In this document: positions 13,043 to 35,959 of the stretch, piece after piece
How positions within the stretch are numbered: the first letter of the stretch is position 1
Layout: every line of letters starts with the position of its first letter
From: Bdellovibrionota bacterium
Lineage (GTDB): Bacteria > Bdellovibrionota > UBA2428
Assembly (NCBI GenBank): GCA_964201665.1
Contig: CAXNEW010000003.1
Location: forward strand, 13,284-77,283
Direction: 5' to 3'
Length of the DNA stretch: 64,000 nt
Position numbers and translations under genes: made by a program
The notes under the pieces: model-generated
Told to the model about the DNA's origin: nothing
The model's input: only the letters and a program-made list of their open reading frames with translations
Databases searched by the model: none

Positions 13043-13051
13043 ACTCAAAAA

Positions 13052-18698: not shown

Positions 18699-20093
18699 TC
18701 AACTTGCATTTTTGAAATGCAATTTTATGGGACAACCCGAAAATCCAAACTCTTTTCGCAAGGTATTACTGATAAATCTTCGATAAGAAAAATGAACATC
18801 TCGACTTGGTAAATTTGAAAACAAAACAAATTCCGGCGGAGAACTTGAAACCTGACTCAAATAATAGAATTTTGCAGGCCGCCCTCGAGAACCAATCGGA
18901 TGAGAATGAATTCGAATTTTTTTCTCAAAAATTTCATTGAGTTTCGAAGTTTGAACTCGGTGAGCTCGGTCTGAAAGAACTTTCTGAAGTGATTTAACAA
19001 TGTCCTTTACGCCCTTACCGGTAAGTCCTGAGGCCTTCACTCGTGGACACCACTTCACAAACTCCAGTTTCAAATCCTGAGTTCGTTGTAAATGCATCCA
19101 TTTGTCGGAAGCGTCCGACTGGGTCATTAAATCCCATTTATTAAAAACAAGAACCACGCTGAGTCCAAAATCTAAGGCCATTCCGGCAATCGAGGCATCA
19201 AGATCAGTAATTCCAGCGTTGGAATCCAAAACAACTAAGGCCACATCCGCAAAGCGAGCTTCTTCTTTAAGTTTTTCTCGGGCAACCCATTCAACGTCAC
19301 GCTCAAGTCGACCCGGTTGCCTTAAACCCGCAGTGTCCACGAGTTTCCAATCAATTCCTTTTGCGTGACTCAAAAAACTGGATTCAATGGGGTCGCGGGT
19401 GGTGCCTGGAACGGACGAAACAACGTGCCGCTCTTCACCTAAAATCTGATTTAGCAAAGTTGATTTGCCCACGTTAGGTCGGCCTAAAACTAAAATACGC
19501 GGAGCTTTTACTTTTTCTGTTTCTGACGTCTCTTCGTCTTGGGTTTTAGTTGAATTCCCTAAAAAGATTTCAGCTAAACTGTCGCGAAGTTCCATAACTC
19601 CGATGTCATGCTCAGCGGAAACACTGAAATTCTTATCCAGTCCTAATGCGAAATAAGATTGGGCATCATGCTTTTTAGAATCAACTTTATTTGCAACAAG
19701 CCAAACAGGTGTCTCAAGTTTGCCAAGATTTCTGCGTAGCCATTGTGCGATTTCTAATTCCTGGTTTCCAATTTCTCGGGTGCCATCAACCACAAACAAA
19801 ACAATGTCCGCAGTTTTAAGAGCCACAGCAGCAGCCCTTTCGATTTCTTTACCCAAGGGATGACTTAGGGCTTCAGCGCCTACTCCACCTGTATCAATAA
19901 ATTTCATTTTTCCAAGATCAGGCGACTCCGCCACACATTCATGTCGATCAACAGTTACACCCGGCCGATCACACACAATGGCAGTGCGAGTTCGAGTGAG
20001 ACGATTGAACATCGCAGATTTACCTACATTTGTAGGGCCCACCAACACGATGGTTGGAAATTCTGATTTAGGCGTTAGAGTTTTGGACGCCAT
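18699..20093 (-). CDS. der: ribosome-associated GTPase Der/EngA
   Basis: Two tandem GTPase domains with P-loops 'GPTNVGKS' and 'GRPNVGKS', followed by a KH-like C-terminus. Confidence 0.92.
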   Translation of the reverse strand: MASKTLTPKSEFPTIVLVGPTNVGKSAMFNRLTRTRTAIVCDRPGVTVDRHECVAESPDLGKMKFIDTGGVGAEALSHPLGKEIERAAAVALKTADIVLFVVDGTREIGNQELEIAQWLRRNLGKLETPVWLVANKVDSKKHDAQSYFALGLDKNFSVSAEHDIGVMELRDSLAEIFLGNSTKTQDEETSETEKVKAPRILVLGRPNVGKSTLLNQILGEERHVVSSVPGTTRDPIESSFLSHAKGIDWKLVDTAGLRQPGRLERDVEWVAREKLKEEARFADVALVVLDSNAGITDLDASIAGMALDFGLSVVLVFNKWDLMTQSDASDKWMHLQRTQDLKLEFVKWCPRVKASGLTGKGVKDIVKSLQKVLSDRAHRVQTSKLNEIFEKKIRIHSHPIGSRGRPAKFYYLSQVSSSPPEFVLFSNLPSRDVHFSYRRFISNTLRKEFGFSGCPIKLHFKNAS

Positions 20094-21084
20094 AACCCAA
20101 TTCTGCCAGGCTTGAGGGCCGGCTCTCCCAATTTTCTACAACTTTAACCATAAGGCGCAAAATTAAATCATCGCCCGTAATTTCTTTGTATCGCTCGCGT
20201 GTTGCAATGCCGATATCTCGTATTTTTGTTCCCTTAGCTCCAACCAATATGGGTTTCAGACTTTCTTTTGCCACCCACAAAGTTGCGTCTACTTCGGGCA
20301 TTTTTCGATGCCCTTGGGGATCCAAAAATTTAATAACTGTGGAATCAGCCTGATAAGGCACTTCTTGCCGACACTGTCTAAACACAGCTTCACGAATTAA
20401 ATTCTGAACCAACTGCTTTTCATTGAGGTCAGTCCAACGCCCCTCATCATAAAAGGGCTCGCCCCAAGGTAAGGACTTCTCAATAATTTCGAGAAGTGGC
20501 TGAAGGTTGCTATCATTTTCTTTTAGGCCTTGAATGGCTGACACAGGAACAATTTCTTCAAAACAAGTTAGAATTTCGTGGGTGCGCGCAATCAAAGGAA
20601 GCATGTCATTTTTTGAAATTTTATCGACCTTGTTGAGAACCAAAATCCATTTTTGATTCGGATTTTTCTTATCTAGGCGATCTTTGAGCCAACCTGCGAT
20701 CTTGTCTGATCCGGGACGTTTGAGTTCAAGATCGCGCAAATCGTTGTGAAAGGTTTTTACATCGGCAAGCCAAACAACAGTATCGACCTCAGAGAGCGCT
20801 TCTTCAATTGATGTGAACATCGATCGATCAAGTAGCCCTTTTTTAAAATTGAGCCCCGGAGTGTCCACTAAAACAATTTGCCCCGACCATTCTTTCTTTT
20901 TGTTGTGCTGTTGAAGAATACCGCGAATATTGGTTCGAGTGGTTTGTGGGCGATCCGATGTTGCGCTCACTGCAATTTCAAGAAGTGAATTCAGCAAGGT
21001 TGACTTTCCTGCGTTAGGTCGCCCCAAAATGGCGACCCGTCCGCTACGAAAGGGATTCGATCGATGGGGGGTAGTCTTTGTCAT
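20068..21084 (-). CDS. era: GTPase Era
   Basis: Contains 'VAILGRPNAGKSTLLN', 'DTPG', 'NKVD' and a C-terminal KH domain. The start is chosen at ATG 21084 ('MTKTTPH'). The longest ORF starts at 21171. Confidence 0.92.
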   Translation of the reverse strand: MTKTTPHRSNPFRSGRVAILGRPNAGKSTLLNSLLEIAVSATSDRPQTTRTNIRGILQQHNKKKEWSGQIVLVDTPGLNFKKGLLDRSMFTSIEEALSEVDTVVWLADVKTFHNDLRDLELKRPGSDKIAGWLKDRLDKKNPNQKWILVLNKVDKISKNDMLPLIARTHEILTCFEEIVPVSAIQGLKENDSNLQPLLEIIEKSLPWGEPFYDEGRWTDLNEKQLVQNLIREAVFRQCRQEVPYQADSTVIKFLDPQGHRKMPEVDATLWVAKESLKPILVGAKGTKIRDIGIATRERYKEITGDDLILRLMVKVVENWESRPSSLAELGYGVQNSNA

Positions 21085-21871
21085 TTTTGCTTCCTTTTTT
21101 CTTTGGACTTTCGAGTGCTTGTTTTGGAATTCCCAGTGAGTACATGTGTTCTTCAAGAACTCCGATTGCACTATCCATTTCTAACAATTTCTGTGCCGCC
21201 AATTGGGTGGCTTCTTTTTTTGTGCTCGCCTGGGCTCTTGAAACTTCTATCCCACGAATAAAAAGTCCCATAGTAAACGTTTTCTGATGATCTGGCCCCA
21301 GAGTTTCTAAGCACGAGTAAGACGGAGTACCAAAACCCAATGACTGACAAAATTCCTGAAGGCGGCTTTTATAGTCCGTTGTAATCAAATTCCAACTTCG
21401 CGAGGCCCATTCCTGGGCATCTGTAAGAAACAAGGCAAGAACTCTCGATACAATGCATTTAGAAGCCTCAAGACCCCCGTCAATGTAAATTGCAGCAAGT
21501 ATGGCCTCCAATGTATCGGCCAGAAGCGAATCTCTTTCTCGGCCACCACTTGATTCCTCGCCCCTACCCAACCTTACATATTTGCCAATTCCTAATTCGC
21601 GCGCTGCACGCGCTAAAGAAGTTTCAGAAACGAGTTGAGATCTTAAGCGGGATAAATGACCTTCATTTGTAGCCGGGGCAAATCCCATGACTAGTTCGGT
21701 AACACAAAGATCAAGCACAGCATCGCCTAAAAACTCCAAGCGCTCGTTGTGAGGCGAATCGTTATATTCGTGGTGGTGGGATCTATGAGTCAGGGCCTCG
21801 GTAATGGTTTCAGTTTTTTTGAACTCATAACCGAGGGCCCGCTCAAGCTCCCGCAGTGGGGTGTCTTTCAT
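21044..21871 (-). CDS. rnc: ribonuclease III
   Basis: Carries the signature 'NERLEFLGDAVL' and a C-terminal dsRBD. The classic rnc-era order is present. Confidence 0.92.
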   Translation of the reverse strand: MKDTPLRELERALGYEFKKTETITEALTHRSHHHEYNDSPHNERLEFLGDAVLDLCVTELVMGFAPATNEGHLSRLRSQLVSETSLARAARELGIGKYVRLGRGEESSGGRERDSLLADTLEAILAAIYIDGGLEASKCIVSRVLALFLTDAQEWASRSWNLITTDYKSRLQEFCQSLGFGTPSYSCLETLGPDHQKTFTMGLFIRGIEVSRAQASTKKEATQLAAQKLLEMDSAIGVLEEHMYSLGIPKQALESPKKKGSKNDKDYPPSIESLS

Positions 21872-21947: not shown

Positions 21948-24875
21948 TCACCGTGCCGCCGAAGGGACTGACGAGCCAGAAACTCCATTAATTCGATGGT
22001 TTGGAAACAAAGGCTCACCCCCGTATTGGTAAATGTAATTTCTCATAGCCTCAATCTGCTTTTTGGCATCATCCCCGAAATATCCGGGAACGGCGATGCG
22101 GGCACTCTTGGGATCTTCTTCGTCCATCAAAGGCCAAAGTGTAGGCATTCGAGTCCCGGGCATGATGGCTTGTGGATTTTCAAGCCACTGCAAAACCCAC
22201 GGGTCTTTAAGTCGGGCTTTGACATTGGCAAAATGTGGAGCCGCTGCAGAAACATCCTCGCCAGGTTTTCGAACAGCATGGCAACTTAAACAGGCCAGAT
22301 CCTTAAACATACCTTCGACTTGCACGAGCTCCGAAGACGTCAGCATTCGAGCAGGCTCCAATACGTAGGGATAAGGACTTTTATCAAAGGCCGCAAAGTA
22401 TGCGGTGTAGGCCATACTTTCAGCATCCGTCATATAAAACTGAGGCATGCGAATCTTTAGCCAAGGACGAATCATCACATTCGGATTTAGCAAAAAGGCG
22501 TGTAGCCACTCGGTTCGTGTTTTGAGTCCCTGGGTATTTAAATTTGGCGGCCCGTTTGTCACATCTTCCGAGAAATGCGCCAGAACATCGCCACCGCGAT
22601 TTTCAACGAAGTGACATGACGAGCAATTGTGCCGATTCAACATCCGATGACCCGCAATAATTTTTTCATAACGGCCATCAATTTTGTGAACGGCTTCGTC
22701 ATCAACGTTTTTATTTTCATAACCAACAACTATGGCAGTAATGGCCTCAGCCTGTTTATGGTTAAAATTAAACTGTGGCATGCGGGTTTTGCCTTCGAAA
22801 TCACGTTTTTTACCAACATCCCAAATTCTTGGAGTTCGAATTTTTGTATAAACCCATTCTGAACGAGTGTGCTGGGCATGAACGTTTTCAAACGCAAATT
22901 TCGAAAGATCCTTTGATCCCTCATAGGTCAACTCTGCTCCTATTTTTGGCGCATTTTCAAAGCCATCTATGGCGTGGCAGGCATAGCAGCCATAATGGCC
23001 AATGAGCTTTTCCCCTAAAAATAATTTTTTATCTTCAAGCGACATCGAGGCAAGTTTTAGGCCAGCCGCTTTCTGGGTCATCACAGCCATCAAATACGTT
23101 TTCACGATTTGATCTCTCATTTCGTCTTTGGGCTCGGGCGGAGTCGCCGAATCAAACTCTACATTTCTTTTAGTTAGCAAATAGGCCGCAATATCAAGGG
23201 CCTCAGTTTCAGTTAATTTCAAACTGGGCATTCCGGAATTATCCCAATAATGCTTGGGATTATAGACCCACGAAACCAGCCAATCCTGAGTGACTTTAGA
23301 ACCCATTTGGTTGAGCTCGGGCCCAACCATCGGAATTCGTTCGTCCTTGTACCCCATAACGGTAGGGTCTTTGGGATTCACCCTTGGGAAGTCAGCAATC
23401 GCATGACAAGCCAAACAACCCACTGAGCCTACGAGTTCTTTTCCGCGAGCCACATTTCCAACGGCGCCCGAAGCCAATTTTAATGGCTGATAGGGAACTG
23501 ATTTTTTAAACAAATAATGAGATATTGATTCGACTTCTACAGCCCCGCGCTCAAGCGACTCAGGATCAGAATTATTATGATTTTTCCAAAACCGCGGCAT
23601 GAGCGATGAGGGCCTATAACTTTGAGGATCCCAAATAAATTTTCTGACCCAATCTTGATCAAGCTTTGAGGCCAAAGTTTTTAAAGTAGGCCCTGTTTTC
23701 TTTTCAAAACTTAGTTTTTCAAAATGGCCTGCAAACTTATGACAGTTATAACAGCCATAACGCTCAATCATTCTCATACCTGCGTTAAATGTGGGAGCAT
23801 CCCTCAATGTAACTTCTTGAGCATGACACTGTATACATTTGCCCTCAGTCATCGCAGTTGGAATCATCGGGGTAGGAATGTGTTTGGGTGGGTTAAAATT
23901 ATATTTATCTTCCCACTCAGCCCACTGAGCCGGATCTTTCGGCACATGTCCTGCCAATGAAAAATCTGCACTCTGCGGAATGCCCGAATGGCAAACCGTG
24001 CAACCAACCTTTTGAACAGGATGCGGCGATTCTTCTGAAAGCATAAGATTGAGTTTGGGATGACTTGTAAAAGGCTGTGGTAAATCTTCAAATCCAGCTT
24101 TGTCGGCATTTGCATGGCAGGTCATACAACGGTCAACACGCGGAACCTTATTGAAAAAATAGTCATCTTTAAGATGCGGTAAAATAATTTGATTAATCTT
24201 AAGAGTAGGCGAAACAAAATCTACAAGAGGCGCATTCCTCAACAAATTCCCTAAACTTTGTTCGTTTTTAGCAATAATTTTTTCGAGTCGGTTTTTTTCT
24301 GAAACCAGCGCAGCTAAATCTTTCTCGGTCGTTGTTTTCTCTAAAAGATAGCCTCGCTTTTCTTGCAAAGCATTGTCTCGATCGGCTTCAGCAAGGGTTA
24401 CTTGGTCTTTGAGTTTTAGAACCTCGCGTTCAAGGTTCATCCAATCGTTTTTAATTTTTGCAGCATTGGCCGACCTCTTAGCTAAGGCGACATCCACTAA
24501 AAACAAATCGGCATCTAATTTTGCTTTTAGATTTTGGTAGGTCTGCGTGATTTTAAAAACTTTATCTTGTTTGCCTTTAATTTTGGCGTCTAAACCCTCT
24601 AGAGATTGGGCCTTGGAGGTATCGAAATCGGCAATTTTCTTTTTGAGTCCCTCGAGTTTAGATCGATCCAAAGCAACAAGGGCCTCACTTAATTTTCTTT
24701 CACCTAGGGCAACATTGAGCCTTTGCCACTGACGTTGGTAACGCTTCCACTCTCTATCAAAATCCTGAAGAACGCCCCAAACCACCGCTACAAAAAGCAG
24801 GATTGAGCCGATGGCGAACCATTTTGAAAGGTCTCGTGATTTATAAACGGTTTCGTTTGGATTCGTTTGCGCCAT
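21948..24875 (-). CDS. membrane-anchored octahaem c-type cytochrome with an N-terminal coiled coil
   Basis: Eight CXXCH motifs are present (CMTCH, CTVCH, CIQCH, CYNCH, CLACH, CYACH, CSSCH, CLSCH). One N-terminal TM helix is followed by a ~200-aa heptad-like K/E/L-rich region. Confidence 0.8.
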   Translation of the reverse strand: MAQTNPNETVYKSRDLSKWFAIGSILLFVAVVWGVLQDFDREWKRYQRQWQRLNVALGERKLSEALVALDRSKLEGLKKKIADFDTSKAQSLEGLDAKIKGKQDKVFKITQTYQNLKAKLDADLFLVDVALAKRSANAAKIKNDWMNLEREVLKLKDQVTLAEADRDNALQEKRGYLLEKTTTEKDLAALVSEKNRLEKIIAKNEQSLGNLLRNAPLVDFVSPTLKINQIILPHLKDDYFFNKVPRVDRCMTCHANADKAGFEDLPQPFTSHPKLNLMLSEESPHPVQKVGCTVCHSGIPQSADFSLAGHVPKDPAQWAEWEDKYNFNPPKHIPTPMIPTAMTEGKCIQCHAQEVTLRDAPTFNAGMRMIERYGCYNCHKFAGHFEKLSFEKKTGPTLKTLASKLDQDWVRKFIWDPQSYRPSSLMPRFWKNHNNSDPESLERGAVEVESISHYLFKKSVPYQPLKLASGAVGNVARGKELVGSVGCLACHAIADFPRVNPKDPTVMGYKDERIPMVGPELNQMGSKVTQDWLVSWVYNPKHYWDNSGMPSLKLTETEALDIAAYLLTKRNVEFDSATPPEPKDEMRDQIVKTYLMAVMTQKAAGLKLASMSLEDKKLFLGEKLIGHYGCYACHAIDGFENAPKIGAELTYEGSKDLSKFAFENVHAQHTRSEWVYTKIRTPRIWDVGKKRDFEGKTRMPQFNFNHKQAEAITAIVVGYENKNVDDEAVHKIDGRYEKIIAGHRMLNRHNCSSCHFVENRGGDVLAHFSEDVTNGPPNLNTQGLKTRTEWLHAFLLNPNVMIRPWLKIRMPQFYMTDAESMAYTAYFAAFDKSPYPYVLEPARMLTSSELVQVEGMFKDLACLSCHAVRKPGEDVSAAAPHFANVKARLKDPWVLQWLENPQAIMPGTRMPTLWPLMDEEDPKSARIAVPGYFGDDAKKQIEAMRNYIYQYGGEPLFPNHRINGVSGSSVPSAAR

Positions 24876-24881
24876 GTGTCC

Positions 24882-25964
24882 TCAAATGTTGAACAAATAT
24901 TCTGGAATAGCGACTATATATTTTAAGTTTAGTGTCCACCTCAGATACATCTTTATTGGCAGGGCCAACATAATCAAAAGGTGGGACATGATGACATTGT
25001 AGCGAAGAAAGCCATACTTTTCGTAATACTTGCTCAAGACAGTGGCTCCCAAAAGCGGCGGCAACGCAAAAAGATAAACAAAAACTATACCCAAACCAAA
25101 AATTTCCCGAATCAAAATATTGCTGGGCAATCCAACATTAAAGAATTTCACCCAAATAATATCTGCAAGATTGACGTTAGTGAGGGCTTCAACTTTGTGT
25201 TTGTCCCAATACTCGAAAGGACCAAAAAAGTTCCATCCCGGTCCCCTCATAAAGGTCCCCAAAAAAATCAAGGCAATCCAAAGAACTATAAATCCGAACC
25301 CAAAAATCCAAATCACGTTAAATCGTTCTTTAATTGTGTAGTATCCATTTCCCTTGGGGTTAACATCAACATAGGGCATCGCGATGAGTCCCGACAGAAT
25401 TAGAGAGGGAAGCACAACTCCTGCTATCCACGGGTCAAAGTACACGAGCATTTCTTGCAATCCCAAAAAATACCAGGGTGCCTTGGCAACTGCCGGAGTC
25501 ACTCCGGCATTGGCAGGTTCCTCAAGGGGGGCTTTCAGCAAAATTGCCCAAGCAACCAAAAAAGCCGTAAAAAGAACCATACAAATAAGTTCCGAGTAAA
25601 CAAGGTCAGGCCATGTATAAACTTTTTTGTCAGATTCAACTTTTTCTAAATTGGGCTTACCCTCAGCCATGAGCTGATCGTTCAGGTAGCCGCGCCTAAA
25701 ACTAAGCCAAAGAAAAAAACCAACTCCGTAACTCATAAGCCAAATCGGAACGTTGTCGGGCTTGGTGGCTTCTTTTGCAAAGTTAGGATCCGTTAATCCA
25801 AAAAGTAATCCTGCTATGGAAAGCCAAAGAACCGGCTTCATGACTCGTGGCTGAGACCAAAGGGGATAATATTTCATAATCCACCACCATCCCACCAAAA
25901 CTATGGTGAAATAAATTGTCGGATTACTCAGGAAATTGACGATATCTTTTATGAGTTGAACCAT
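24882..25964 (-). CDS. cytochrome b C-terminal-half / subunit IV-like membrane subunit (extended)
   Basis: 360-aa polytopic protein. 'KAPWYFLGLQEML' corresponds to the PEWY-region motif of the cytochrome b C-terminal half. Confidence 0.75.
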   Translation of the reverse strand: MVQLIKDIVNFLSNPTIYFTIVLVGWWWIMKYYPLWSQPRVMKPVLWLSIAGLLFGLTDPNFAKEATKPDNVPIWLMSYGVGFFLWLSFRRGYLNDQLMAEGKPNLEKVESDKKVYTWPDLVYSELICMVLFTAFLVAWAILLKAPLEEPANAGVTPAVAKAPWYFLGLQEMLVYFDPWIAGVVLPSLILSGLIAMPYVDVNPKGNGYYTIKERFNVIWIFGFGFIVLWIALIFLGTFMRGPGWNFFGPFEYWDKHKVEALTNVNLADIIWVKFFNVGLPSNILIREIFGLGIVFVYLFALPPLLGATVLSKYYEKYGFLRYNVIMSHLLIMLALPIKMYLRWTLNLKYIVAIPEYLFNI

Positions 25965-25987
25965 CCCTGAAAATTAAAGGCCCTTTA

Positions 25988-26779
25988 TTACAAGGGGCCT
26001 GAAATTCCTCCATCCTTTCTAACTCTCCAAAAATGAATCGCAATTAACAAAGTCACAACAAAAGGAATCGCGATACAGTGAAGAACATAAAACCTAAGTA
26101 AAGTGGCCTCGCCGATGAATCGACCCGCCAACAATCCAAATTTAGCGTCGTTACCTGAATGTACCAGATTTACATCGCCAATTTTTAGTAACATGGTACC
26201 GGGTCCTTCAACTCCGGCAAAAGGTGTCGCAGCACCCATGTTGGCTCCTACAGTGATGGCCCAAATTGCAAGCTGATCCCAGGGAAGCAAATACCCCGTA
26301 AATGAAAGCAACATTGTTAAAACGAGCAGAATAACTCCAATGCCCCAGTTAAATTCGCGAGGGGGCTTATAGGATCCTGTCATGAAAACTCGAAACATGT
26401 GCAACCAAACTGTGATCACCATAGCGTGGGCACCCCAGCGATGAATTTCCCGCAAAACGCCTAGCGGAACATGTTCTCGAAGGGCGATGATATCGTTGTA
26501 GGCAAATTCCAAGGTTGGGCGGTAGTAGAACATCAACAAAATGCCCGTGACCGTTTCAATTAAAAAAAGAAAGAAGGTCAGGCCGCCCATACACCACGTA
26601 AAAGACATGCGAACGCCGGACTTGCGAGTTTTTACGGGATGTAAATGAAGAAAAACATTTGAAAGAACCGCTAGCGATTGGTCGCGTGGATTATCGGGCA
26701 GCCCATGCCTAAAGATGGATTTCCAAATTTGAGTCTCACGCAACTTATCCCACAAACTCTTTAACGGATTATCGGCCAC
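25988..26779 (-). CDS. cytochrome b (b6-like N-terminal half)
   Basis: Four-helix b6-type sequence with 'IHRWGAHAMV', 'FTGYLLPWDQLAIWA' and conserved His pairs. GTG start. Confidence 0.85.
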   Translation of the reverse strand: MADNPLKSLWDKLRETQIWKSIFRHGLPDNPRDQSLAVLSNVFLHLHPVKTRKSGVRMSFTWCMGGLTFFLFLIETVTGILLMFYYRPTLEFAYNDIIALREHVPLGVLREIHRWGAHAMVITVWLHMFRVFMTGSYKPPREFNWGIGVILLVLTMLLSFTGYLLPWDQLAIWAITVGANMGAATPFAGVEGPGTMLLKIGDVNLVHSGNDAKFGLLAGRFIGEATLLRFYVLHCIAIPFVVTLLIAIHFWRVRKDGGISGPL

Positions 26780-26805
26780 TATTTTCGCCCTTCTATTTCA
26801 ACCAA

Positions 26806-27330
26806 CTAAATTTTAATTACAAAGTCAGGGTCATCCCACTGATTGGCATATCTAATTGCACGCGACTTATCGACGCGTATATTTCCGGATTCATCGAGCT
26901 TAATAGCGAACCGCTCGAGGGGTCTGGGTGCAGGACCTTCAAAATGCAAACCCGTCATTCTGTAACCTGAACCATGACACGGACATTTAAATTTATTTTC
27001 AGAGGGCAGCCAATTTGGAGTGCATCCGAGATGTGTACAAACCGTTGAAAGGGCGAAAATTCCGTCGGGACCTTTTACAATCCAGGTCGACCATGAATCC
27101 TTAAATCTTTCATCAACGCCCAATCCAAACTCCGTCGGTGAACCCGCTCGAAAATTACTGAGTTTTTCAAAGAGTACGTTCGGAAACAGAAATCGCCCGA
27201 GCAGAGTCAAAATAGCTCCAGAGGCGACCGAGAAGGTGATCCAGCCTATCCAAAACCATGAGAAAAATTCCCGTCGGGTGTACTGTTCGTCCGTTGGGGT
27301 CAAAGAGGAACCTGTAGGTGTTTGTGCCAT
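26806..27330 (-). CDS. Rieske 2Fe-2S protein
   Basis: Carries the cluster boxes 'CTHLGC' and 'CPCHGS' plus an N-terminal TM anchor. Confidence 0.88.
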   Translation of the reverse strand: MAQTPTGSSLTPTDEQYTRREFFSWFWIGWITFSVASGAILTLLGRFLFPNVLFEKLSNFRAGSPTEFGLGVDERFKDSWSTWIVKGPDGIFALSTVCTHLGCTPNWLPSENKFKCPCHGSGYRMTGLHFEGPAPRPLERFAIKLDESGNIRVDKSRAIRYANQWDDPDFVIKI

Positions 27331-27437
27331 GGGGCCTTGAATTCTCCTAAACTCCTAAAATTTATCTCGAATCCTTATGTCTCAGCAAATGCAATTTGAA
27401 AGTTTCTGAAGTCAAAGGGCTAAACTTTTGCTTTGCG

Positions 27438-28355
27438 TTATTTTTGGTGTTCTAAAATCTTTTTAAATTCTGATCGAATTCGAAGGTTTGGATGCTTTTG
27501 ACCCAGATTTTCGATTTGAGGCCGAAGTGCCTCTGTGAGCCTCGAATTATTTTTTAGAACTCCAATCAGAGAAATTGAAAAATCAAAATCTTCAACTTTA
27601 TATTTCCGAGGCGATGTATTCATGGATTCTTCAAAGAAGCTCTCGATGAAATTCAAAACAAGCGGAGTCGAGGAATCTCGTTGAATCATCGACAAAACCG
27701 CAGACCTTCGAACAATCTCAAATGAATCGCCATAAAGTGAATTCAACCAGGACTCAACCTGTGTAGAATCTTTCAAAAACTGAGCCCCCAAGACGGTTGC
27801 CAAAGTTGCCCTAATTTCCGGGAGCGGGTGATTTTGAAAATGAGAAAGCGATTCCAAACAGGTCGCAGTTAAAAAGTAGCCCCGACCTAAACTTTTTCCG
27901 AGTCCTGCGAGTACAAGGGCAAACTCTTCTCCTCCTCCAGATTGAGTTTCAAGTGCTGAGCAAATTACCGGCTGCACTTTTTCGGGCTGGACTGAATCTC
28001 CAAGCATCAGCAAAAGGGCGGCTGAAAACGGAAATTTTACAACACCCATTTGGGTGAGACGACTCAGAACAATTCCAGTTTCTGCTACGCCCAGGGGGTT
28101 TGTTTGCGAATATTTTTGGGACCATTCAAGAGCGGCTCCACGGGCAAGCTCTGGATTAGAAGACTTTACAATCTCTAAGAGTTTTTGGGGATCGCCTCGA
28201 GCTCCTGTGAATCCAGAAAAAAAACCAACCCAAACTCCCATCAAGGTTAAAATGACAAATAAAATGATACCTAAACTCAAAAGCGATTTTGCTGTTGATT
28301 TGGGCTCAGGATTTACTCTGAATTCAGGAACTGAGTTTTTGGGTGTTTCGGTCAA
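27438..28355 (-). CDS. membrane-anchored HEAT-repeat-like protein
   Basis: One N-terminal TM helix ('LLSLGIILFVILTLMGVWVGFF'), then helical repeats with HEAT/PBS-lyase-like segments ('HPLPEIRATLATVLG', 'DSFEIVRRSAVLSM'). TTG start lies 17 nt after the nuoI stop. Confidence 0.55.
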   Translation of the reverse strand: MTETPKNSVPEFRVNPEPKSTAKSLLSLGIILFVILTLMGVWVGFFSGFTGARGDPQKLLEIVKSSNPELARGAALEWSQKYSQTNPLGVAETGIVLSRLTQMGVVKFPFSAALLLMLGDSVQPEKVQPVICSALETQSGGGEEFALVLAGLGKSLGRGYFLTATCLESLSHFQNHPLPEIRATLATVLGAQFLKDSTQVESWLNSLYGDSFEIVRRSAVLSMIQRDSSTPLVLNFIESFFEESMNTSPRKYKVEDFDFSISLIGVLKNNSRLTEALRPQIENLGQKHPNLRIRSEFKKILEHQK

Positions 28356-28372
28356 AAAAATTCAGCCCTTCC

Positions 28373-28942
28373 TTAACCTTTCGGTAAAGGATTTTCATCT
28401 TTAAAATTCAGATAGTCGTACATGAGATGATCTCTATCGAATTTAGAATATTCATATTCGGGCGTGTGAACCAAGCACTCTGTTGGACAAACTTCTGTGC
28501 ACAAACCGCAAAAACAACACAAGGCCTCGTCAATATCAAAACGCAGCAACTTAAGTTTAAGAGGTTTTGAACCAAAGTGGGCTGGGGTTTTGGCATCGGG
28601 ATTTTCTTCGGGCAATTTTTTTCGACTCTCAATCGTAATACATTCAACCGGACATATAACTGCGCACTGGTTGCAAGAGATGCAGCCATCTTGGTCCATA
28701 AAAAGGCGGTTCCTTGAAATTAAGGGGATATCATCTTTAACTTCAGGGTAATTGATTGTGACATCGCCCCTGCCATAATTATATCCACTTCGAATTTTTT
28801 TCATTCCGTTGGCTTTTAAAAAAGTTCGGAAGGTAATTCCCATTCCCTTGGAAACGGTTCGAATGGCGTCAAAAATATTTTGAAAATATTGTTTAACAGT
28901 TGTTTCTTCGTTTAAGGGATTCAGATTCGGAAAAGTGCTCAT
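28373..28942 (-). CDS. nuoI: NADH-quinone oxidoreductase subunit I-like 2x[4Fe-4S] ferredoxin
   Basis: 'TINYPEVK' is followed by 'CISCNQCAVICP' and 'CCFCGLCTEVCP'. The start overlaps the nuoD stop by 4 nt. Confidence 0.8.
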   Translation of the reverse strand: MSTFPNLNPLNEETTVKQYFQNIFDAIRTVSKGMGITFRTFLKANGMKKIRSGYNYGRGDVTINYPEVKDDIPLISRNRLFMDQDGCISCNQCAVICPVECITIESRKKLPEENPDAKTPAHFGSKPLKLKLLRFDIDEALCCFCGLCTEVCPTECLVHTPEYEYSKFDRDHLMYDYLNFKDENPLPKG

Positions 28943-30075
28943 CGGTCAATTTCTCCCAATACAATGTCTAGACTTCCCAAAAGGGCCACAATGTCACCAA
29001 TCATCATTCCACTACACAATTCATCCATTGTTGAAACTGCAATAAAACAGGGCGACTTTGCCTTAATGCGATAAGGTTTTTTAGTTCCGTCAGCCACAAT
29101 GTGATAGCCCAACTCACCACGCGGACATTCCGTAGCTAAATAGATTTCACCTTCGGGTTTTACGGCTTTTGCCACTTTGCCCATGAAATCACCCTCAGGT
29201 AATTGTTTAACGGCCTGTTCTAAAATTTTTACAGACTCAAACATTTCTTTAATGCGAACATAGTAACGGTTCCAGCAATCACCGACGACTCCTCGTTCTG
29301 CCAGACCAACGCAAACGTTAAAATCATATTTTTCATAACCAGAATAGGGTCGGTCTTTGCGTAAATCCCAAGCCATCCCACTGCCGCGTAAATTGGGTCC
29401 GCTCAAGCCGTAACTCACAGCTAAATCCAGGGGAATAATCCCCACGTTGGCCGTACGTTTTACGAAAATAATATTGCCCGAAAGAAGTTCGTCGATTTCT
29501 TCAAGTTGAGGTACAAAATATTTACAGAATTCTAAAATTTTATCTTGTAAGCCTCGCGACAAATCACGAACGACACCACCAGGACGAACATAATTATAAA
29601 GTAAACGGGCTCCACAGAGTTCTTCAAAAATTCTCAAAACATGTTCGCGATCGCGAAAGGCGTACAAGAAGGGAGTAAAACCTCCGATATCCAACGAGTA
29701 GGTACCCAGCGCCAACAAATGCGAAGCTATTCGATTGAGCTCCGAAACAATTACGCGAATAGCTTGCGCTCGGTCAGGGACTTCAACGTCAGCAAGCTTT
29801 TCGATCGCCAGACACATTCCCACTTCCATGTTCATGGCTGCGAGATAGTCCATTCGATCGGCAAAGGGTATTGACTGCAGATACTCGCGATTTTCAGTGT
29901 GTTTTTCAAAACAGCGATGCAGATATCCAATATCAGGATAAGCCGCTTTAATGATTTCCCCGTCACTGATAATTTCGACTCTCAAAACACCGTGAGTTGA
30001 GGGGTGCTGAGGCCCCATATTAATTACGAGTTCTTCGGTTCTAAGTTCGGGTGAATGATTTTCAGTTATAGCCAC
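28939..30075 (-). CDS. nuoD: NADH-quinone oxidoreductase subunit D
   Basis: Contains 'NMGPQHPSTHGVLR' and the C-terminal 'DIVLGEIDR'. It is 378 aa long and lacks the [NiFe]-hydrogenase Cys motifs. Confidence 0.92.
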   Translation of the reverse strand: MAITENHSPELRTEELVINMGPQHPSTHGVLRVEIISDGEIIKAAYPDIGYLHRCFEKHTENREYLQSIPFADRMDYLAAMNMEVGMCLAIEKLADVEVPDRAQAIRVIVSELNRIASHLLALGTYSLDIGGFTPFLYAFRDREHVLRIFEELCGARLLYNYVRPGGVVRDLSRGLQDKILEFCKYFVPQLEEIDELLSGNIIFVKRTANVGIIPLDLAVSYGLSGPNLRGSGMAWDLRKDRPYSGYEKYDFNVCVGLAERGVVGDCWNRYYVRIKEMFESVKILEQAVKQLPEGDFMGKVAKAVKPEGEIYLATECPRGELGYHIVADGTKKPYRIKAKSPCFIAVSTMDELCSGMMIGDIVALLGSLDIVLGEIDR

Positions 30076-30094
30076 GTAAAATAATCCTTAGTCC

Positions 30095-30736
30095 TTAAAG
30101 AGGAACTTTCATTCCATTGTATTCTTCTGGAAAAACATAATCCTTGCGCAAGGGATGCCCCACCCAATCAGGGGGTAGCAATATGCGAGCCATGTTGGGA
30201 TGCCCTTCAAACTCAACGCCCATCATGTCGAAAACTTCACGCTCATACCAATTTGCGGCTCGATAAATTCCACTTGCAGTTGCAAGTCTTGGAGATTTTT
30301 TTGAAACATAGGCCTTAAGAATAATTTGATGCCGGTGAACAAAGGACCAAAGTGCATAAACCACCGCAATGTGGCCCTTGGGCCCCTTAACGGATGGAGC
30401 GGGTGCCGATTCTGTCCCCTCGCCTGCCGAAGAATTAGGGGAGTTTTCATTGGGCAAATCAACACACGAAATCACCTGCAACAGGGCACACAAAAATTTA
30501 GAGTCATCTCTCAAAAATCGCAAAATTTCAGAAATCTTTGAGGGATCAACCGCAATGAAAGGATCACCCTTATGACTCTTTTCGACTTCAGCCACCGAGG
30601 TGGGTCCGAACTGGCTTTTGAGGGCTTGGGCCACAGTATCGACATCTTTGGGTAAACCTGTGCCGATAATTTTCGAAATCGAGGGAACGGGTTCGGGCAG
30701 GTAGGTAAGTCTAATTTCAGGGTTTTGTGAGCTCAT
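30095..30736 (-). CDS. nuoC: NADH-quinone oxidoreductase subunit C
   Basis: 'ANWYEREVFDMMGVEFEGHP' is the typical NuoC/30-kDa subunit signature. Confidence 0.85.
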   Translation of the reverse strand: MSSQNPEIRLTYLPEPVPSISKIIGTGLPKDVDTVAQALKSQFGPTSVAEVEKSHKGDPFIAVDPSKISEILRFLRDDSKFLCALLQVISCVDLPNENSPNSSAGEGTESAPAPSVKGPKGHIAVVYALWSFVHRHQIILKAYVSKKSPRLATASGIYRAANWYEREVFDMMGVEFEGHPNMARILLPPDWVGHPLRKDYVFPEEYNGMKVPL

Positions 30737-31613: not shown

Positions 31614-32257
31614 CGCCAACTGTGGTGACACCTAAAATTCCGACCCTGGATATTGACTCCGAAACTCAAAAACTTTTGCCAGGAAGGTTGCAGTTACTGG
31701 CCCCTACCCCGCCCGAATGGGCCGAGATTGCTGCGAAGAATTTTTCGCACTTTTTAAAAGATCACGCTGCGTGTGAGAGAAAGGCATCGGCCTCGGCACT
31801 TTCCTTTGTTGTTAAATATAAAGACAAAACGGAACTCGTTGAGGCCATGATTGCTTTAGCTCGAGAAGAGCTCGAACACTTTGAACAGGTTTGTAAATTG
31901 CTTCACTCTTTGGGTTTAGAACAAGGCGCTGACGAAAAAGATTCCTATGTGAACGATTTACTTAAGGGCTTGAAAACCGAACCTCAGGAAAGGTTTTTAG
32001 ATCGCTTGGTCATTTCTGCAATCATGGAAGCCCGAGGTTGTGAAAGATTTGGGCTGATGGCCCAAAAGCTAACAGACCCTAAACTTGCACTCTTTTACGA
32101 TCGGTTGAGCCGTGCCGAAGCCAAACACCAACTTCTTTTCATTCAACTTGCCGAAAAGTATTTTCCCAGCCTTCTGGTCAAAAAAAGACTTGATGAACTT
32201 CTGCAACTGGAAGCCCGTTGTATGCTTCAAAAACCCCTGGCCGCTAAACTTTACTAG
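31610..32257 (+). CDS. miaE: tRNA-(ms2io6A)-hydroxylase (MiaE-like di-iron protein)
   Basis: 'DHAACERKASASALSF' and 'REELEHFEQV' fit ferritin-like di-iron motifs as I recall them for MiaE. ATG 31610 forms an ATGA overlap with the plsC stop. Confidence 0.72.
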   Translation: MTPTVVTPKIPTLDIDSETQKLLPGRLQLLAPTPPEWAEIAAKNFSHFLKDHAACERKASASALSFVVKYKDKTELVEAMIALAREELEHFEQVCKLLHSLGLEQGADEKDSYVNDLLKGLKTEPQERFLDRLVISAIMEARGCERFGLMAQKLTDPKLALFYDRLSRAEAKHQLLFIQLAEKYFPSLLVKKRLDELLQLEARCMLQKPLAAKLY

Positions 32258-32264
32258 ATTTTTC

Positions 32265-33662
32265 ATGACCACCAAGGACCGCCTTTTTCAAAACTACCTG
32301 CGCGGCCATTCCGACTTACCTCGGGATTTTGAATTTTCAAACTGTCCTCGGTTTTCAGATATCGTCGTGGTTCCGGCTCGAAACGAAGGAAACTTTTTTT
32401 TTAAACGCACCCTTCCCTCCCTCAAAAAGGCGAGTGAAAAAAGATTTGAACAATCCGGTCTTCCTGTTTTTATTTGTATAGTCGCCAATGGACGAGTCTC
32501 TGATTCTAACGAAGAAATTTTACTTCAAGAATCATTTCTAGAAAAATTTTCAAAACCCGTGAAAACCCAAATGTTCAATTGGGTCGAAACATCAGAGAGT
32601 TTTAGAATTGGGCTTTTTAATTTTATTTCGCCCCCCTTTAGGTTTGAACCCAAGCAGGGAGTCGGTCTGGCTCGAAAAATCGGATGCGACTTGGCCGTAA
32701 GTTTATTTGATAGAGGATTATTAAATTCGACTGTAGTTTTTACAACAGACTCTGATGCAGAAGTGCCTGAAAGCTATTTTTGTTGGGATCGAGAAATACT
32801 TAGCCCTGGCGGAATTGCGGTGTTGCCCTTCAAGCATGTCCCCGACGACTCCCAAATAGCTCCGCCTGAATTCGCTGCTCTTTTTGACAGTTACTTAGAG
32901 AACTACAGGTTGGGACTTCTTTTTGCAGCTTCACCGTTTGCATTTACAGCGCTTGGGAGCGCACTGTGCATAAACCTTAAGACTTATGTTCAGGTTCGCG
33001 GAATGCCCAAACTTTTGGCCGGGGAAGATTTTTATATTTGCCAAAAAATAGCCAAATTTTCGCAAGTTTTTCACCCTCGGGGTGACCCTATTTTGCTTCA
33101 GGCTCGATTCTCTGACCGTGTCCCCTTTGGAACGGGGCCTCGAATGGTCTCATGGAAAAATTTCTTAGATGAAAAAGGCCTGGAAAAAAACAAAGCAACC
33201 AATTTCAATGAGATTTGTTTTGAAAATCCCGCTTGTTTTGCTGAACTCAAAAAGGTGAGACTTTTGTTGCGCGATTTAAGAAAAAATTTTTACAGATCCT
33301 GCGACTTTCCCATCCCCTTACACCCGAGAACGCTCGAGTTTCTATCGACCGAAAAAATTCTAGAGAGGTTAAAAGGTGGCCTACAAAACAAAACGAACGC
33401 TGGGGTTTTTGAAAAACTCGAAAGAGAAATTTTTGATGGACTTACTGAGATTCGTCTCATTAATTTTTTAGGCCAGGTCGAAGAATTTAAAGCTCTCCCG
33501 TATGCTTCGGCCCTAGGGTTGTTTTCAGAAATGAAAAAAAATTACTGTGAAGCCGACGACATGGTGTTGATCCACAAGCGAATGGTTTCGGCTTCTTCGG
33601 CCGGAATGAGCGAGCCCGTGGGAGGCATCCTCCCCACTCCAGCCCCCCCAATAATGCGCTGA
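32265..33662 (+). CDS. glycosyltransferase family 2-like protein
   Basis: 'IVVVPARNEG' and the DxD-like 'TDSDAEV' are present. ATG 32265 lies 8 nt after the miaE stop. The last ~40 codons overlap the convergent cytochrome c gene. Confidence 0.55.
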   Translation: MTTKDRLFQNYLRGHSDLPRDFEFSNCPRFSDIVVVPARNEGNFFFKRTLPSLKKASEKRFEQSGLPVFICIVANGRVSDSNEEILLQESFLEKFSKPVKTQMFNWVETSESFRIGLFNFISPPFRFEPKQGVGLARKIGCDLAVSLFDRGLLNSTVVFTTDSDAEVPESYFCWDREILSPGGIAVLPFKHVPDDSQIAPPEFAALFDSYLENYRLGLLFAASPFAFTALGSALCINLKTYVQVRGMPKLLAGEDFYICQKIAKFSQVFHPRGDPILLQARFSDRVPFGTGPRMVSWKNFLDEKGLEKNKATNFNEICFENPACFAELKKVRLLLRDLRKNFYRSCDFPIPLHPRTLEFLSTEKILERLKGGLQNKTNAGVFEKLEREIFDGLTEIRLINFLGQVEEFKALPYASALGLFSEMKKNYCEADDMVLIHKRMVSASSAGMSEPVGGILPTPAPPIMR

Positions 33663-35943: not shown

Positions 35944-35959
35944 CCTCGTTTTTAAACGA

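What the first reader, a model, noticed from the sequence alone, without database searches (positions are those of the whole stretch)
21948..30736. Orphan nuoC-nuoD-nuoI Q-module packed head-to-tail with a HEAT-repeat membrane protein and a Rieske/split-cytochrome b/octahaem c complex
Seen in the sequence: eight co-oriented minus-strand genes with junctions of 19, -4 (overlap), 17, 107, 26, 23 and 6 nt. Upstream of nuoC is a divergent plsC, so nuoA and nuoB are absent here. nuoI follows nuoD directly with no nuoE/F/G/H between them, and no nuoJ-N follow. NuoD has complex-I-type ends ('GPQHPSTHGVLR', 'DIVLGEIDR') rather than [NiFe]-hydrogenase Cys motifs. NuoI keeps both 4Fe-4S motifs. Established knowledge: canonical loci are nuoA-N or the 11-gene nuoABCDHIJKLMN, and NuoB (cluster N2) and NuoH complete the quinone site with NuoD. 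Inference: one possibility is a split nuo regulon whose Q-module core is co-expressed with the quinol:cytochrome c reductase. The other is a stand-alone NuoCDI module functionally tied to the bc-type complex through the HEAT protein. I recall no described system with this composition, but I cannot search.
Basis: partly seen in the sequence, partly recalled or inferred. Interest (0 to 1): 0.75.

Follow-up and report, generated by a model that had tools for sequence, protein, structure and literature searches.

The report
Split complex I genes beside bc operon
Three genes for the quinone-reducing part of respiratory complex I sit directly in front of a five-gene cytochrome bc-type operon in a predatory-bacterium relative (Bdellovibrionota); this is most likely one piece of a complex I whose genes are known to be scattered in this phylum, parked next to another respiratory operon, not a new hybrid enzyme.

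Summary
Eight co-oriented minus-strand genes (nuoC, nuoD, nuoI, a HEAT-repeat membrane protein, Rieske, split cytochrome b, an 8-haem cytochrome c) lie at the stated coordinates with the stated junctions, and no other nuo gene occurs in the 64-kb window.

The unit is two modules, not one. The HEAT gene belongs to the bc module: HEAT-Rieske-cyt b-cyt b'-octahaem c occurs without any nuo gene in an Acidobacteria MAG and in one further, unidentified 5.8-Mb genome. In two relatives, foreign genes are inserted between nuoI and HEAT, and never between HEAT and Rieske.

The nuoCDI set belongs to a Bdellovibrionota-wide clade of stand-alone nuoBCDI clusters. These derive from the 11-gene (NuoEFG-less) type of complex I. 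Published work reports a matching nuoAHJKLMN membrane-arm cluster in all Bdellovibrionota studied, and names Bdellovibrio as the example of a "split" nuo operon.

NuoD keeps the quinone-site His and Tyr and 98% of the residues invariant in canonical NuoD.

The best reading is therefore a split nuo regulon whose nuoCDI part lies next to the bc operon in one clade. The nuoB of this clade was not located, and co-transcription was not tested. Interest is modest.

The parts
30095..30736 (-). nuoC (30-kDa subunit, 213 aa), with a low-complexity insertion; fast-evolving (35-55% identity within the clade)
   Evidence: Pfam PF00329 at E 4e-38. NCBIfam NuoC families hit but below their cutoffs. Conserved position in L001-L010 and L060.
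28939..30075 (-). nuoD (49-kDa subunit, 378 aa), complex-I type. His28 and Tyr77 correspond to T. thermophilus Nqo4 His38 and Tyr87.
   Evidence: Pfam PF00346 at E 3e-92. NCBIfam NF004739 scores 460.6 bits against a cutoff of 360. PDB alignment to 2fug_4/4hea at E 7e-101. In its clade, 98.3% of the 73 columns invariant in canonical NuoD are retained.
28373..28942 (-). nuoI-like 2x[4Fe-4S] subunit (189 aa); overlaps nuoD by 4 nt
   Evidence: Fer4 families. Motifs CISCNQCAVICP and CCFCGLCTEVCP. The best NCBIfam hits are NuoI families, below cutoff. 36% identity to the canonical NuoI of L012.
27438..28355 (-). HEAT-repeat protein (305 aa) with one N-terminal transmembrane helix. It is the first gene of the bc-type module and evolves very fast.
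   Evidence: HEAT_2 at E 1.2e-5. Hydropathy shows one N-terminal TM helix. All-helical AlphaFold model, mean pLDDT 65. Profile of orthologues against the HEAT protein of the L061 bc operon: probability 97.4%, E 1.4e-11. Same position in L061 and L062, which have no nuo genes there.
27331..27437 (-). 107-nt spacer between the HEAT and Rieske genes. A spacer of similar length (about 50-115 nt) occurs in Bdellovibrionota relatives, against 17 nt in L061.
   Evidence: No terminator-like or promoter-like site called. Folding z-score 0.21. Sequence poorly conserved.
26806..27330 (-). Rieske [2Fe-2S] subunit (174 aa) with a twin-arginine signal and a TM anchor
   Evidence: PF00355. CTHLGC, CPCHGS and RREFF motifs. 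The best NCBIfam hits are b6f-type PetC families, below cutoff.
25988..26779 (-). Cytochrome b6-like N-terminal half (263 aa). His113/His127 and His234/His249 are the haem ligand pairs. Cys63 sits at the position where b6-type proteins bind haem ci.
   Evidence: PF00033 at 1e-40. His and Cys positions read from the sequence. NCBIfam ExtP 256.7 bits (cutoff 290) and cytochrome b6 178 bits. 90-93% identity within the clade.
24882..25964 (-). Cytochrome b C-terminal / subunit IV-like membrane protein (360 aa), longer than the canonical subunit IV. The Qo-motif position reads APWY.
   Evidence: PF00032 at 8.5e-6. Five or more hydrophobic segments and no PEWY match. Weak NCBIfam hits to ExtQ and b6f subunit IV.
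21948..24875 (-). Membrane-anchored octahaem cytochrome c (975 aa): an N-terminal TM helix, about 200 residues of predicted coiled coil, then 8 CxxCH motifs
   Evidence: Eight CxxCH at residues 250, 292, 347, 375, 487, 630, 751 and 862. Cytochrom_C and FixO domains. The family spans Bdellovibrionota (48-69% identity) and Acidobacteria-type genomes (34-37%).

Best explanation
The locus is two respiratory modules lying head-to-tail.

Module A (nuoC-nuoD-nuoI) is the peripheral-arm (Q-module) gene set of an 11-subunit-type, NuoEFG-less complex I. In Bdellovibrionota the genes of this enzyme are partitioned into a peripheral-arm cluster (ancestrally nuoBCDI) and a separate membrane-arm cluster (nuoAHJKLMN). 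In the window's clade nuoB has moved elsewhere and nuoCDI has come to lie next to divergent plsC, immediately upstream of Module B. The products would assemble with NuoB and NuoH/A/J-N encoded elsewhere into an ordinary quinone-reducing, proton-pumping complex I-like enzyme. Its electron donor is unknown, as for other 11-subunit forms.

Module B (HEAT protein, Rieske, b6-like cytochrome b, long subunit IV-like protein, membrane-anchored octahaem cytochrome c) is a self-contained quinol:cytochrome c oxidoreductase operon of the b6c type, also found in Acidobacteria-type genomes. Its HEAT-repeat first gene is an accessory subunit or assembly factor of that complex. It is not a bridge to NuoCDI.

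The juxtaposition probably allows read-through co-expression of two consecutive steps of the respiratory chain in this clade. That step is inferred, not shown.
For: Shown by tools:
- Module B without nuo genes occurs in L061 and L062, with a HEAT_2 protein of 298-305 aa as first gene. It is homologous to the window's HEAT family (hhalign probability 97.4%, E 1.4e-11, 261 columns).
- The nuoI|HEAT boundary is broken by an inserted Trypsin_2 gene in L060 and by a 502-aa ORF in L007. HEAT-Rieske adjacency is kept in all 11 loci.
- Four-gene nuoB-C-D-I clusters with unrelated flanks and no membrane-subunit genes within 10 kb occur in L011, L013, L016, L017, L019, L021, L024, L047, L048, L050-52, L054 and L055.
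- In an NJ tree the window-clade NuoD and all stand-alone NuoD form one clade. It is sister to canonical 11-gene-type NuoD (59% identity to L012) and remote from the 14-gene-type NuoD of L050.
- NuoD keeps the quinone-site His and Tyr. Its clade keeps 98.3% of the 73 columns invariant in canonical NuoD, so it is under complex-I constraints that imply NuoB and NuoH partners.

From the literature:
- A nuoAHJKLMN cluster is present at the same site in all predatory and non-predatory Bdellovibrionota studied (PMC13147790, Discussion).
- The Bdellovibrio nuo operon is cited as the example of a 'split' operon (PMC4758237, Methods).

Also: no terminator-like hairpin was found between the modules.
Against: - The existence of the partner genes in this particular clade therefore rests on literature about other Bdellovibrionota and on sequence constraint.
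- nuoB is absent from the 64-kb window and from all 10-kb flanks of the clade.
- The nuoCDI/bc adjacency is conserved across a fairly deep clade (NuoD 70-79% identity; octahaem c down to 48%). That is longer than expected for neutral gene order and could reflect selection for co-expression or a functional link.
- NuoC and NuoI score below the NCBIfam equivalog cutoffs.
Confidence: 0.75

Rival explanations
1. NuoCDI, the HEAT protein and the Rieske/cyt b/octahaem c complex form one physical or functional super-module. This would be a membrane-arm-less NuoCDI oxidoreductase docked on the bc complex through the membrane-anchored HEAT protein, or a dedicated complex I-complex III supercomplex encoded as one operon.
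For: The eight genes are tightly packed and co-oriented. The adjacency is conserved in at least 10 genomes of the clade, down to 48% octahaem c identity. No terminator-like site lies between the modules. nuoB is missing locally, so the module is atypical.
Against: The HEAT gene travels with the bc genes in genomes with no adjacent nuo genes. Sister lineages have nuoBCDI alone, with no bc or HEAT gene nearby. Unrelated genes are inserted between nuoI and HEAT in L060 and L007. NuoD keeps the full set of canonical complex-I residues, including the quinone-site His and Tyr, which need NuoB and NuoH. A matching membrane-arm cluster is reported for the phylum (PMC13147790).
Confidence: 0.1
2. The stand-alone Q-module genes are an alternative, exchangeable peripheral arm. 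It would dock on the membrane arm of the second, 14-gene complex I present in some of these bacteria, rather than on its own nuoAHJKLMN arm.
For: In L050-L052 a stand-alone nuoBCDI lies 8 kb from a canonical nuoB-C-D-E... operon. Peredibacter is reported to carry both a full nuoA-N operon and nuoAHJKLMN (PMC13147790).
Against: The two NuoD paralogues in L050 are very divergent: 55% against 41% identity to the L012 reference, on distant tree branches. The reported nuoAHJKLMN cluster lacks exactly B, C, D and I, so the two partial sets complement each other perfectly. The paper gives only 37.5-41.5% identity between the two nuo sets of Peredibacter.
Confidence: 0.07
3. nuoCDI in this clade is a decaying remnant, left non-functional after the loss of nuoB.
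For: nuoB is absent locally. NuoC and NuoI are divergent and below NCBIfam cutoffs. The L005 nuoI region aligns in two overlapping pieces, which may be a frameshift or an assembly error.
Against: The reading frames are intact in the window and in at least 9 relatives. NuoD is 70-79% identical across the clade and retains 98.3% of canonical invariant residues. All eight cluster-binding cysteines of NuoI are kept.
Confidence: 0.05

Closest known systems
Split nuo gene organisation of Bdellovibrio and other Bdellovibrionota (nuoAHJKLMN cluster; PMC13147790, PMC4758237)
   Same: Same phylum and the same principle. The published membrane-arm cluster lacks exactly the subunits (B, C, D, I) that the stand-alone clusters found here encode.
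   Different: The papers read here describe the membrane-arm cluster and the 14-gene operon, not the complementary nuoBCDI cluster. In the window's clade nuoB is additionally detached, and nuoCDI abuts a bc-type operon.
Cyanobacterial/plastid NDH-1 (ndhC-K-J, ndhA-I-G-E, solitary ndhH, ndhB, ndhD, ndhF)
   Same: An 11-core-subunit, NuoEFG-less complex I whose genes are scattered over several loci yet assemble into one enzyme (established knowledge; also stated in PMC4758237).
   Different: The partition differs. Here the division is cleanly peripheral arm versus membrane arm. No oxygenic-photosynthesis-specific subunits are evident. The window NuoD is closer to NUO11 of the Ignavibacteria/Bacteroidota type (59% identity to L012) than to NdhH.
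Canonical 11-gene nuoABCDHIJKLMN operons (NUO11; Chlorobi/Ignavibacteria/Bacteroidota type; Moparthi & Hagerhall 2011, PMC3144371)
   Same: The nearest sequence relatives of the window's NuoC/D/I (loci L012, L014, L018, L020). No N-module genes.
   Different: The genes are contiguous there, with nuoH between nuoD and nuoI. Here nuoI follows nuoD with a 4-nt overlap, and A, B, H and J-N are absent from the locus.
b6-type Rieske/cytochrome b complexes with split cytochrome b and multihaem cytochrome c (for example the Geobacter ExtO-P-Q-S / Cbc-type clusters and the b6c complexes of Firmicutes)
   Same: Rieske + four-helix b6-like cytochrome b with a Cys at the haem ci position + separate C-terminal subunit + c-type cytochrome. 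The best NCBIfam hits are ExtP/ExtQ and cytochrome b6.
   Different: Scores are below the ExtP/ExtQ cutoffs. The cytochrome c is a 950-1000-aa membrane-anchored octahaem protein with a long coiled coil. A TM-anchored HEAT-repeat protein is encoded as the first gene. The subunit IV-like protein is 360 aa.

Membership tests
Respiratory complex I, Q-module (NUO11 type) | 49-kDa/NuoD subunit without [NiFe] cysteine ligands and with the quinone-site His and Tyr (T. thermophilus Nqo4 H38, Y87) | tested here: met
   In the alignment to 2fug_4, window His28 corresponds to H38 and Tyr77 to Y87, and no Cys motifs are present. NCBIfam NF004739 scores above its cutoff.
Respiratory complex I, Q-module (NUO11 type) | 30-kDa/NuoC and NuoI (two [4Fe-4S]) subunits encoded with NuoD | tested here: met
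   PF00329 at E 4e-38. Two CxxCxxCxxxCP motifs. The best NCBIfam hits are NuoI families, though below their cutoffs.
Respiratory complex I, Q-module (NUO11 type) | NuoB/PSST subunit carrying cluster N2 | not testable with these tools
   Absent from the 64-kb window and from the 10-kb flanks in all window-clade loci. Present in the sister stand-alone clusters, and solitary nuoB genes exist in Bdellovibrionota contigs. The rest of this genome could not be searched.
Respiratory complex I, Q-module (NUO11 type) | Membrane arm NuoA, H, J, K, L, M, N encoded in the same genome | not testable with these tools
   None in the window. The literature reports nuoAHJKLMN in all Bdellovibrionota studied (PMC13147790). 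I did not verify this by a scan of my own.
Group 4 membrane-bound [NiFe] hydrogenases (Ech/Mbh/Hyc) | Large-subunit N- and C-terminal cysteine pairs that ligate Ni-Fe; membrane subunits adjacent | tested here: not met
   No Cys motifs at either end. PDB hits to Mbh, Mbs and FHL are 50-65 orders of magnitude weaker than hits to complex I.
Rieske/cytochrome b (bc/b6f-type) quinol oxidoreductase | Rieske CxHxGC...CxCHxS motifs; cytochrome b with two His pairs on helices B and D; c-type cytochrome partner | tested here: met
   CTHLGC and CPCHGS; His113/127 and His234/249; eight CxxCH.
Rieske/cytochrome b (bc/b6f-type) quinol oxidoreductase | Qo-site PEWY/PDWY/PVWY motif in the C-terminal half | tested here: inconclusive
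   No P[EDV]W[YF] match. The sequence at the expected place reads KAPWYFLGLQE. The motif variant was not evaluated against a curated alignment.
Geobacter selenite/tellurite-operon ExtP/ExtQ cytochrome b pair | NCBIfam equivalog score above cutoff | tested here: not met
   ExtP scores 256.7 bits against a cutoff of 290. ExtQ scores 46.3 against 150.

The most novel reading that the evidence does not exclude
In this Bacteriovoracaceae-like clade the nuoB-less nuoCDI set has been captured into the bc operon because the two enzymes are built or work together. One possibility is an obligate complex I-complex III respirasome. Another is that the HEAT protein is a shared membrane-anchored assembly or docking factor. 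The conserved eight-gene unit would then encode a physically coupled quinone-reducing and quinol-oxidising machine.
Probability: 0.07. Interest if true: 0.7.

Novelty: new variant of a known kind. Interest (0 to 1): 0.3.

Why it matters
The finding shows that the "partial" nuoAHJKLMN cluster reported for Bdellovibrionota has a complementary peripheral-arm cluster, nuoBCDI (here nuoCDI). The phylum therefore probably makes a complete 11-subunit complex I from two or three loci. This matters for metabolic reconstruction of predatory bacteria and for automated pathway calls that score complex I as incomplete.

It also defines a conserved five-gene bc-type module (TM-anchored HEAT protein + Rieske + split b6-like cytochrome b + about 950-aa octahaem c) shared by Bdellovibrionota and Acidobacteria-type genomes. 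The HEAT component has no assigned role.

None of this overturns current understanding. The enzymes themselves look conventional.

Tried and rejected
- An exact-sequence look-up of the window NuoD found nothing. Look-ups of the Rieske and HEAT proteins returned only a 15.7-kb Logan contig. The 78-kb NCBI/ENA contig on record for these proteins was not returned, so the source genome could not be named.
- A word-indexed homology search with the HEAT protein returned only itself. An exhaustive HMMER search gave 3 full-length remote homologues. Pairwise BLAST to the L060 and L061 HEAT proteins was not significant, so a profile comparison was needed.
- I tried to link a NuoB to the window clade in three ways. 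Contexts of NuoB hits showed two solitary nuoB genes, neither assignable to the clade. NCBI accession neighbourhoods gave no match. Tetranucleotide similarity was dominated by GC content and uninformative.
- A search for a conserved promoter or terminator in the HEAT-Rieske spacer found no consensus site, no stable hairpin and poor conservation.
- The paper PMC5600118 on bc-complex evolution does not mention Bdellovibrio, Acidobacteria, multihaem or HEAT. A text search for Rieske + HEAT repeat found no paper containing both terms.
- The AlphaFold single-sequence model of the HEAT protein had a mean pLDDT of 65. I judged it too weak for a fold search.
- I did not use the metagenome scan. It could not tie a nuoAHJKLMN cluster to this lineage.


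Full report
**1. The observation**

ORF listing gives eight minus-strand ORFs:
- 30095-30736 (213 aa)
- 28939-30075 (378 aa)
- 28373-28942 (189 aa)
- 27438-28355 (305 aa)
- 26806-27330 (174 aa)
- 25988-26779 (263 aa)
- 24882-25964 (360 aa)
- 21948-24875 (975 aa)

Pfam assigns Complex1_30kDa, Complex1_49kDa, a two-cluster ferredoxin, HEAT_2 (just under threshold here, above it in the L006 orthologue), Rieske, Cytochrome_B, Cytochrom_B_C and a multi-domain cytochrome c.

Motif counts give:
- eight CxxCH in the cytochrome c
- two CxxCxxCxxxCP in NuoI
- CTHLGC and CPCHGS plus an RREFF twin-arginine signal in the Rieske protein
- the His113/127 and His234/249 pairs in cytochrome b
- a Cys (63) at the position where b6-type proteins bind haem ci

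NuoD aligns to T. thermophilus Nqo4 at E 7e-101. The quinone-site His38 and Tyr87 are conserved, as window His28 and Tyr77, and there are no [NiFe] cysteines. Mbh, Mbs and FHL large subunits score far worse.

The flanks are a divergent acyltransferase and miaE upstream, and rnc-era-der downstream. Pfam scans of the rest of the window and tblastn with NuoA, B, H, J, K, L, M and N from a canonical locus find no further nuo gene in the 64 kb.

**2. Whose genome**

The only genome-collection scan places the NuoD among Bdellovibrionota/Bacteriovoracaceae MAGs, with a best identity of 79%. The source genome itself is not in the searchable set. The exact proteins were returned only from a Logan assembly, and the 78-kb NCBI/ENA contig on record for them was not returned.

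**3. Synteny**

tblastn of the window proteins against the fetched loci shows that L001-L010 (NuoD 70-79% identical) keep the order plsC<-|nuoC-nuoD-nuoI-[HEAT]-Rieske-cyt bN-cyt bC-octahaem c-rnc-era. L060, a more distant relative with 48% octahaem c identity, has the same order.

A second set of Bdellovibrionota loci has a four-gene nuoB-nuoC-nuoD-nuoI cluster instead. These are L011, L013, L016, L017, L019, L021, L024, L047 (labelled Bacteriovorax stolpii), L048 (on a 2.48-Mb contig), L050-52, L054 and L055. Their flanks are unrelated to one another, and they have no bc genes and no membrane-subunit genes within 10 kb.

In L050-52 a canonical nuoB-C-D-E... operon lies 8 kb away, so the stand-alone set is a distinct paralogous Q-module.

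An NJ tree of 53 NuoD sequences (no bootstrap) puts the window clade and all stand-alone NuoD in one clade. That clade is sister to canonical 11-gene-type NuoD (L012, L014, L018, L020, where nuoH lies between nuoD and nuoI). It is far from the 14-gene-type NuoD of L050.

**4. Where the missing subunits are**

Removing B, C, D and I from nuoABCDHIJKLMN leaves exactly the seven membrane subunits. The literature reports such a cluster. PMC13147790 (Peredibacter starrii HCB2-198, Discussion) states that a nuoAHJKLMN cluster is present in all predatory and non-predatory Bdellovibrionota studied, at the same chromosomal site. PMC4758237 (Methods) names Bdellovibrio as the example of a split nuo operon. 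I could not repeat this with my own scan, so it is literature evidence, not a tool result.

Independent support comes from sequence constraint. Of 73 alignment columns that are at least 95% invariant in 27 canonical NuoD sequences, the window clade keeps 98.3%. These include the residues that form the quinone site together with NuoB and NuoH.

The nuoB of this clade was not located. Solitary nuoB genes do occur in Bdellovibrionota-like contigs. L053 has one directly upstream of an Rrf2-suf operon, labelled Pseudobdellovibrionaceae. L057 has one next to an SRPBCC gene. So relocation of nuoB is plausible but unproven.

**5. Where the HEAT protein belongs**

The octahaem cytochrome family extends beyond Bdellovibrionota, at 34-37% identity. 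In two such genomes, L061 (a 5.8-Mb contig) and L062 (Acidobacteria MAG GCA_020850715.1), the operon is HEAT(298-305 aa)-Rieske-cyt bN-cyt bC-octahaem c, with no nuo gene upstream.

The HEAT proteins evolve very fast. Pairwise BLAST is not significant, and only three remote homologues appear in 1.8 billion representatives. All of them share length and one N-terminal TM helix. A profile of the Bdellovibrionota orthologues matches the L061 protein with 97.4% probability, E 1.4e-11, over 261 columns.

In L060 a Trypsin_2 gene is inserted between nuoI and HEAT, and in L007 a 502-aa ORF is. HEAT-Rieske adjacency is never broken. The natural boundary is therefore nuoI|HEAT. The locus is [nuoCDI] + [HEAT-bc], not a NuoCDI-HEAT unit attached to bc.

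**6. Transcription**

No terminator-like or sigma-70-like site is called in either inter-module spacer. The 107-nt spacer does not fold better than shuffles, and its sequence is poorly conserved although its length is roughly kept. Co-transcription is possible but untested, and an internal promoter cannot be excluded.

**7. Mechanism**

Shown:
- the identities of the subunits and their cofactor motifs
- the two-module structure
- the phyletic pattern

Inferred:
- NuoC/D/I assemble with a separately encoded NuoB and NuoAHJKLMN into an 11-subunit complex I-like quinone reductase with an unknown electron donor.
- Module B oxidises the quinol. A Tat-exported Rieske protein, a three-haem b6-like cytochrome b and an octahaem cytochrome c pass electrons on to terminal oxidases.
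- The HEAT protein is an accessory subunit or assembly factor of Module B. Weak NCBIfam similarity to CpcE/NblB-type HEAT lyases (L061 and L006 proteins) is only a lead.

**8. Comparison and novelty**

Split complex I gene sets are known from cyanobacterial ndh genes, and Bdellovibrio is cited in PMC4758237. The membrane-arm half in Bdellovibrionota is published. Two things I did not find described:
- the complementary nuoBCDI cluster
- its nuoB-less version fused upstream of a bc-type operon in one clade

The five-gene HEAT-bc module also appears undescribed in the papers I could search, but that search was shallow.

This is a new gene-order variant of known enzymes. I rate interest at about 0.3. 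The residual exotic reading, a physically coupled NuoCDI-bc unit, gets about 7%.

Noticed in passing
window 135-2644 and 7792-13048: Haem-biosynthesis genes lie within 20 kb of the cytochrome operon: hemA-like (135-1511), a porphobilinogen-deaminase-like ORF (1451-2644), ferrochelatase (7792-8904), a hemY-like FAD oxidase (8901-10322), hemE (10323-11378), and a second, 557-aa porphobilinogen-deaminase ORF that may be a hemC/D fusion (11375-13048). The window therefore has two Porphobil_deam ORFs.
   Followed up: no
L053:10001-16832 (GCA_020635235.1 JACKAF010000004.1): A solitary nuoB of the stand-alone clade sits directly upstream of, and co-oriented with, Rrf2-sufB-sufC-sufD-sufS-nifU. An N2-cluster subunit gene is thus attached to the Fe-S assembly operon. 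The NCBI label is Pseudobdellovibrionaceae.
   Followed up: partly
L057:10001-11082 and L058: Another solitary nuoB (191 aa, with an N-terminal extension) abuts a Polyketide_cyc/SRPBCC-domain gene with no intergenic gap. No other nuo genes lie within 10 kb.
   Followed up: no
L050-L052:1-2408 and 10001-12631: The same contig carries a 14-gene-type nuoB-C-D-E... operon that starts at nuoB with no nuoA upstream. Eight kb away it carries a stand-alone nuoBCDI followed by a rhodanese gene.
   Followed up: partly
L026, L028, L030, L034, L044; L025, L029, L031-L033, L035, L038: Planctomycetota/Phycisphaerae loci show other unusual nuo orders. Some have nuoD with no other nuo gene detected nearby. 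Others have nuoI placed before nuoA-B-C-D.
   Followed up: no
window 24882-25964 (residues ~150-160): At the expected Qo-motif position the subunit IV-like protein reads KAPWYFLGLQE (APWY instead of PEWY/PDWY/PVWY). The protein is 360 aa, about twice the length of a canonical subunit IV.
   Followed up: no
window 21948-24875 (residues ~40-230): The octahaem cytochrome c has an N-terminal TM helix followed by about 200 residues of charged, heptad-like sequence before the first haem motif. This length and architecture are conserved in a family of about 930-1060 aa across phyla.
   Followed up: no
L005:11116-11635: The nuoI region of this window-clade MAG aligns to the window NuoI in two overlapping pieces at only 42-45% identity. 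This may be a frameshift, an assembly error or a divergent gene.
   Followed up: no
window 2971-5187, 6010-7806, 17307-18692, 32112-33662, 35056-36087: Five large ORFs (343-738 aa) have no Pfam match at E<=0.001. The 461-aa ORF at 17307-18692 is conserved downstream of der in the Logan contig.
   Followed up: no
window 20068-21171 vs 21044-21871: The longest era ORF (GTG start) overlaps rnc by 128 nt. A gene caller on the same sequence used a shorter 338-aa era, so the true start is probably downstream.
   Followed up: no
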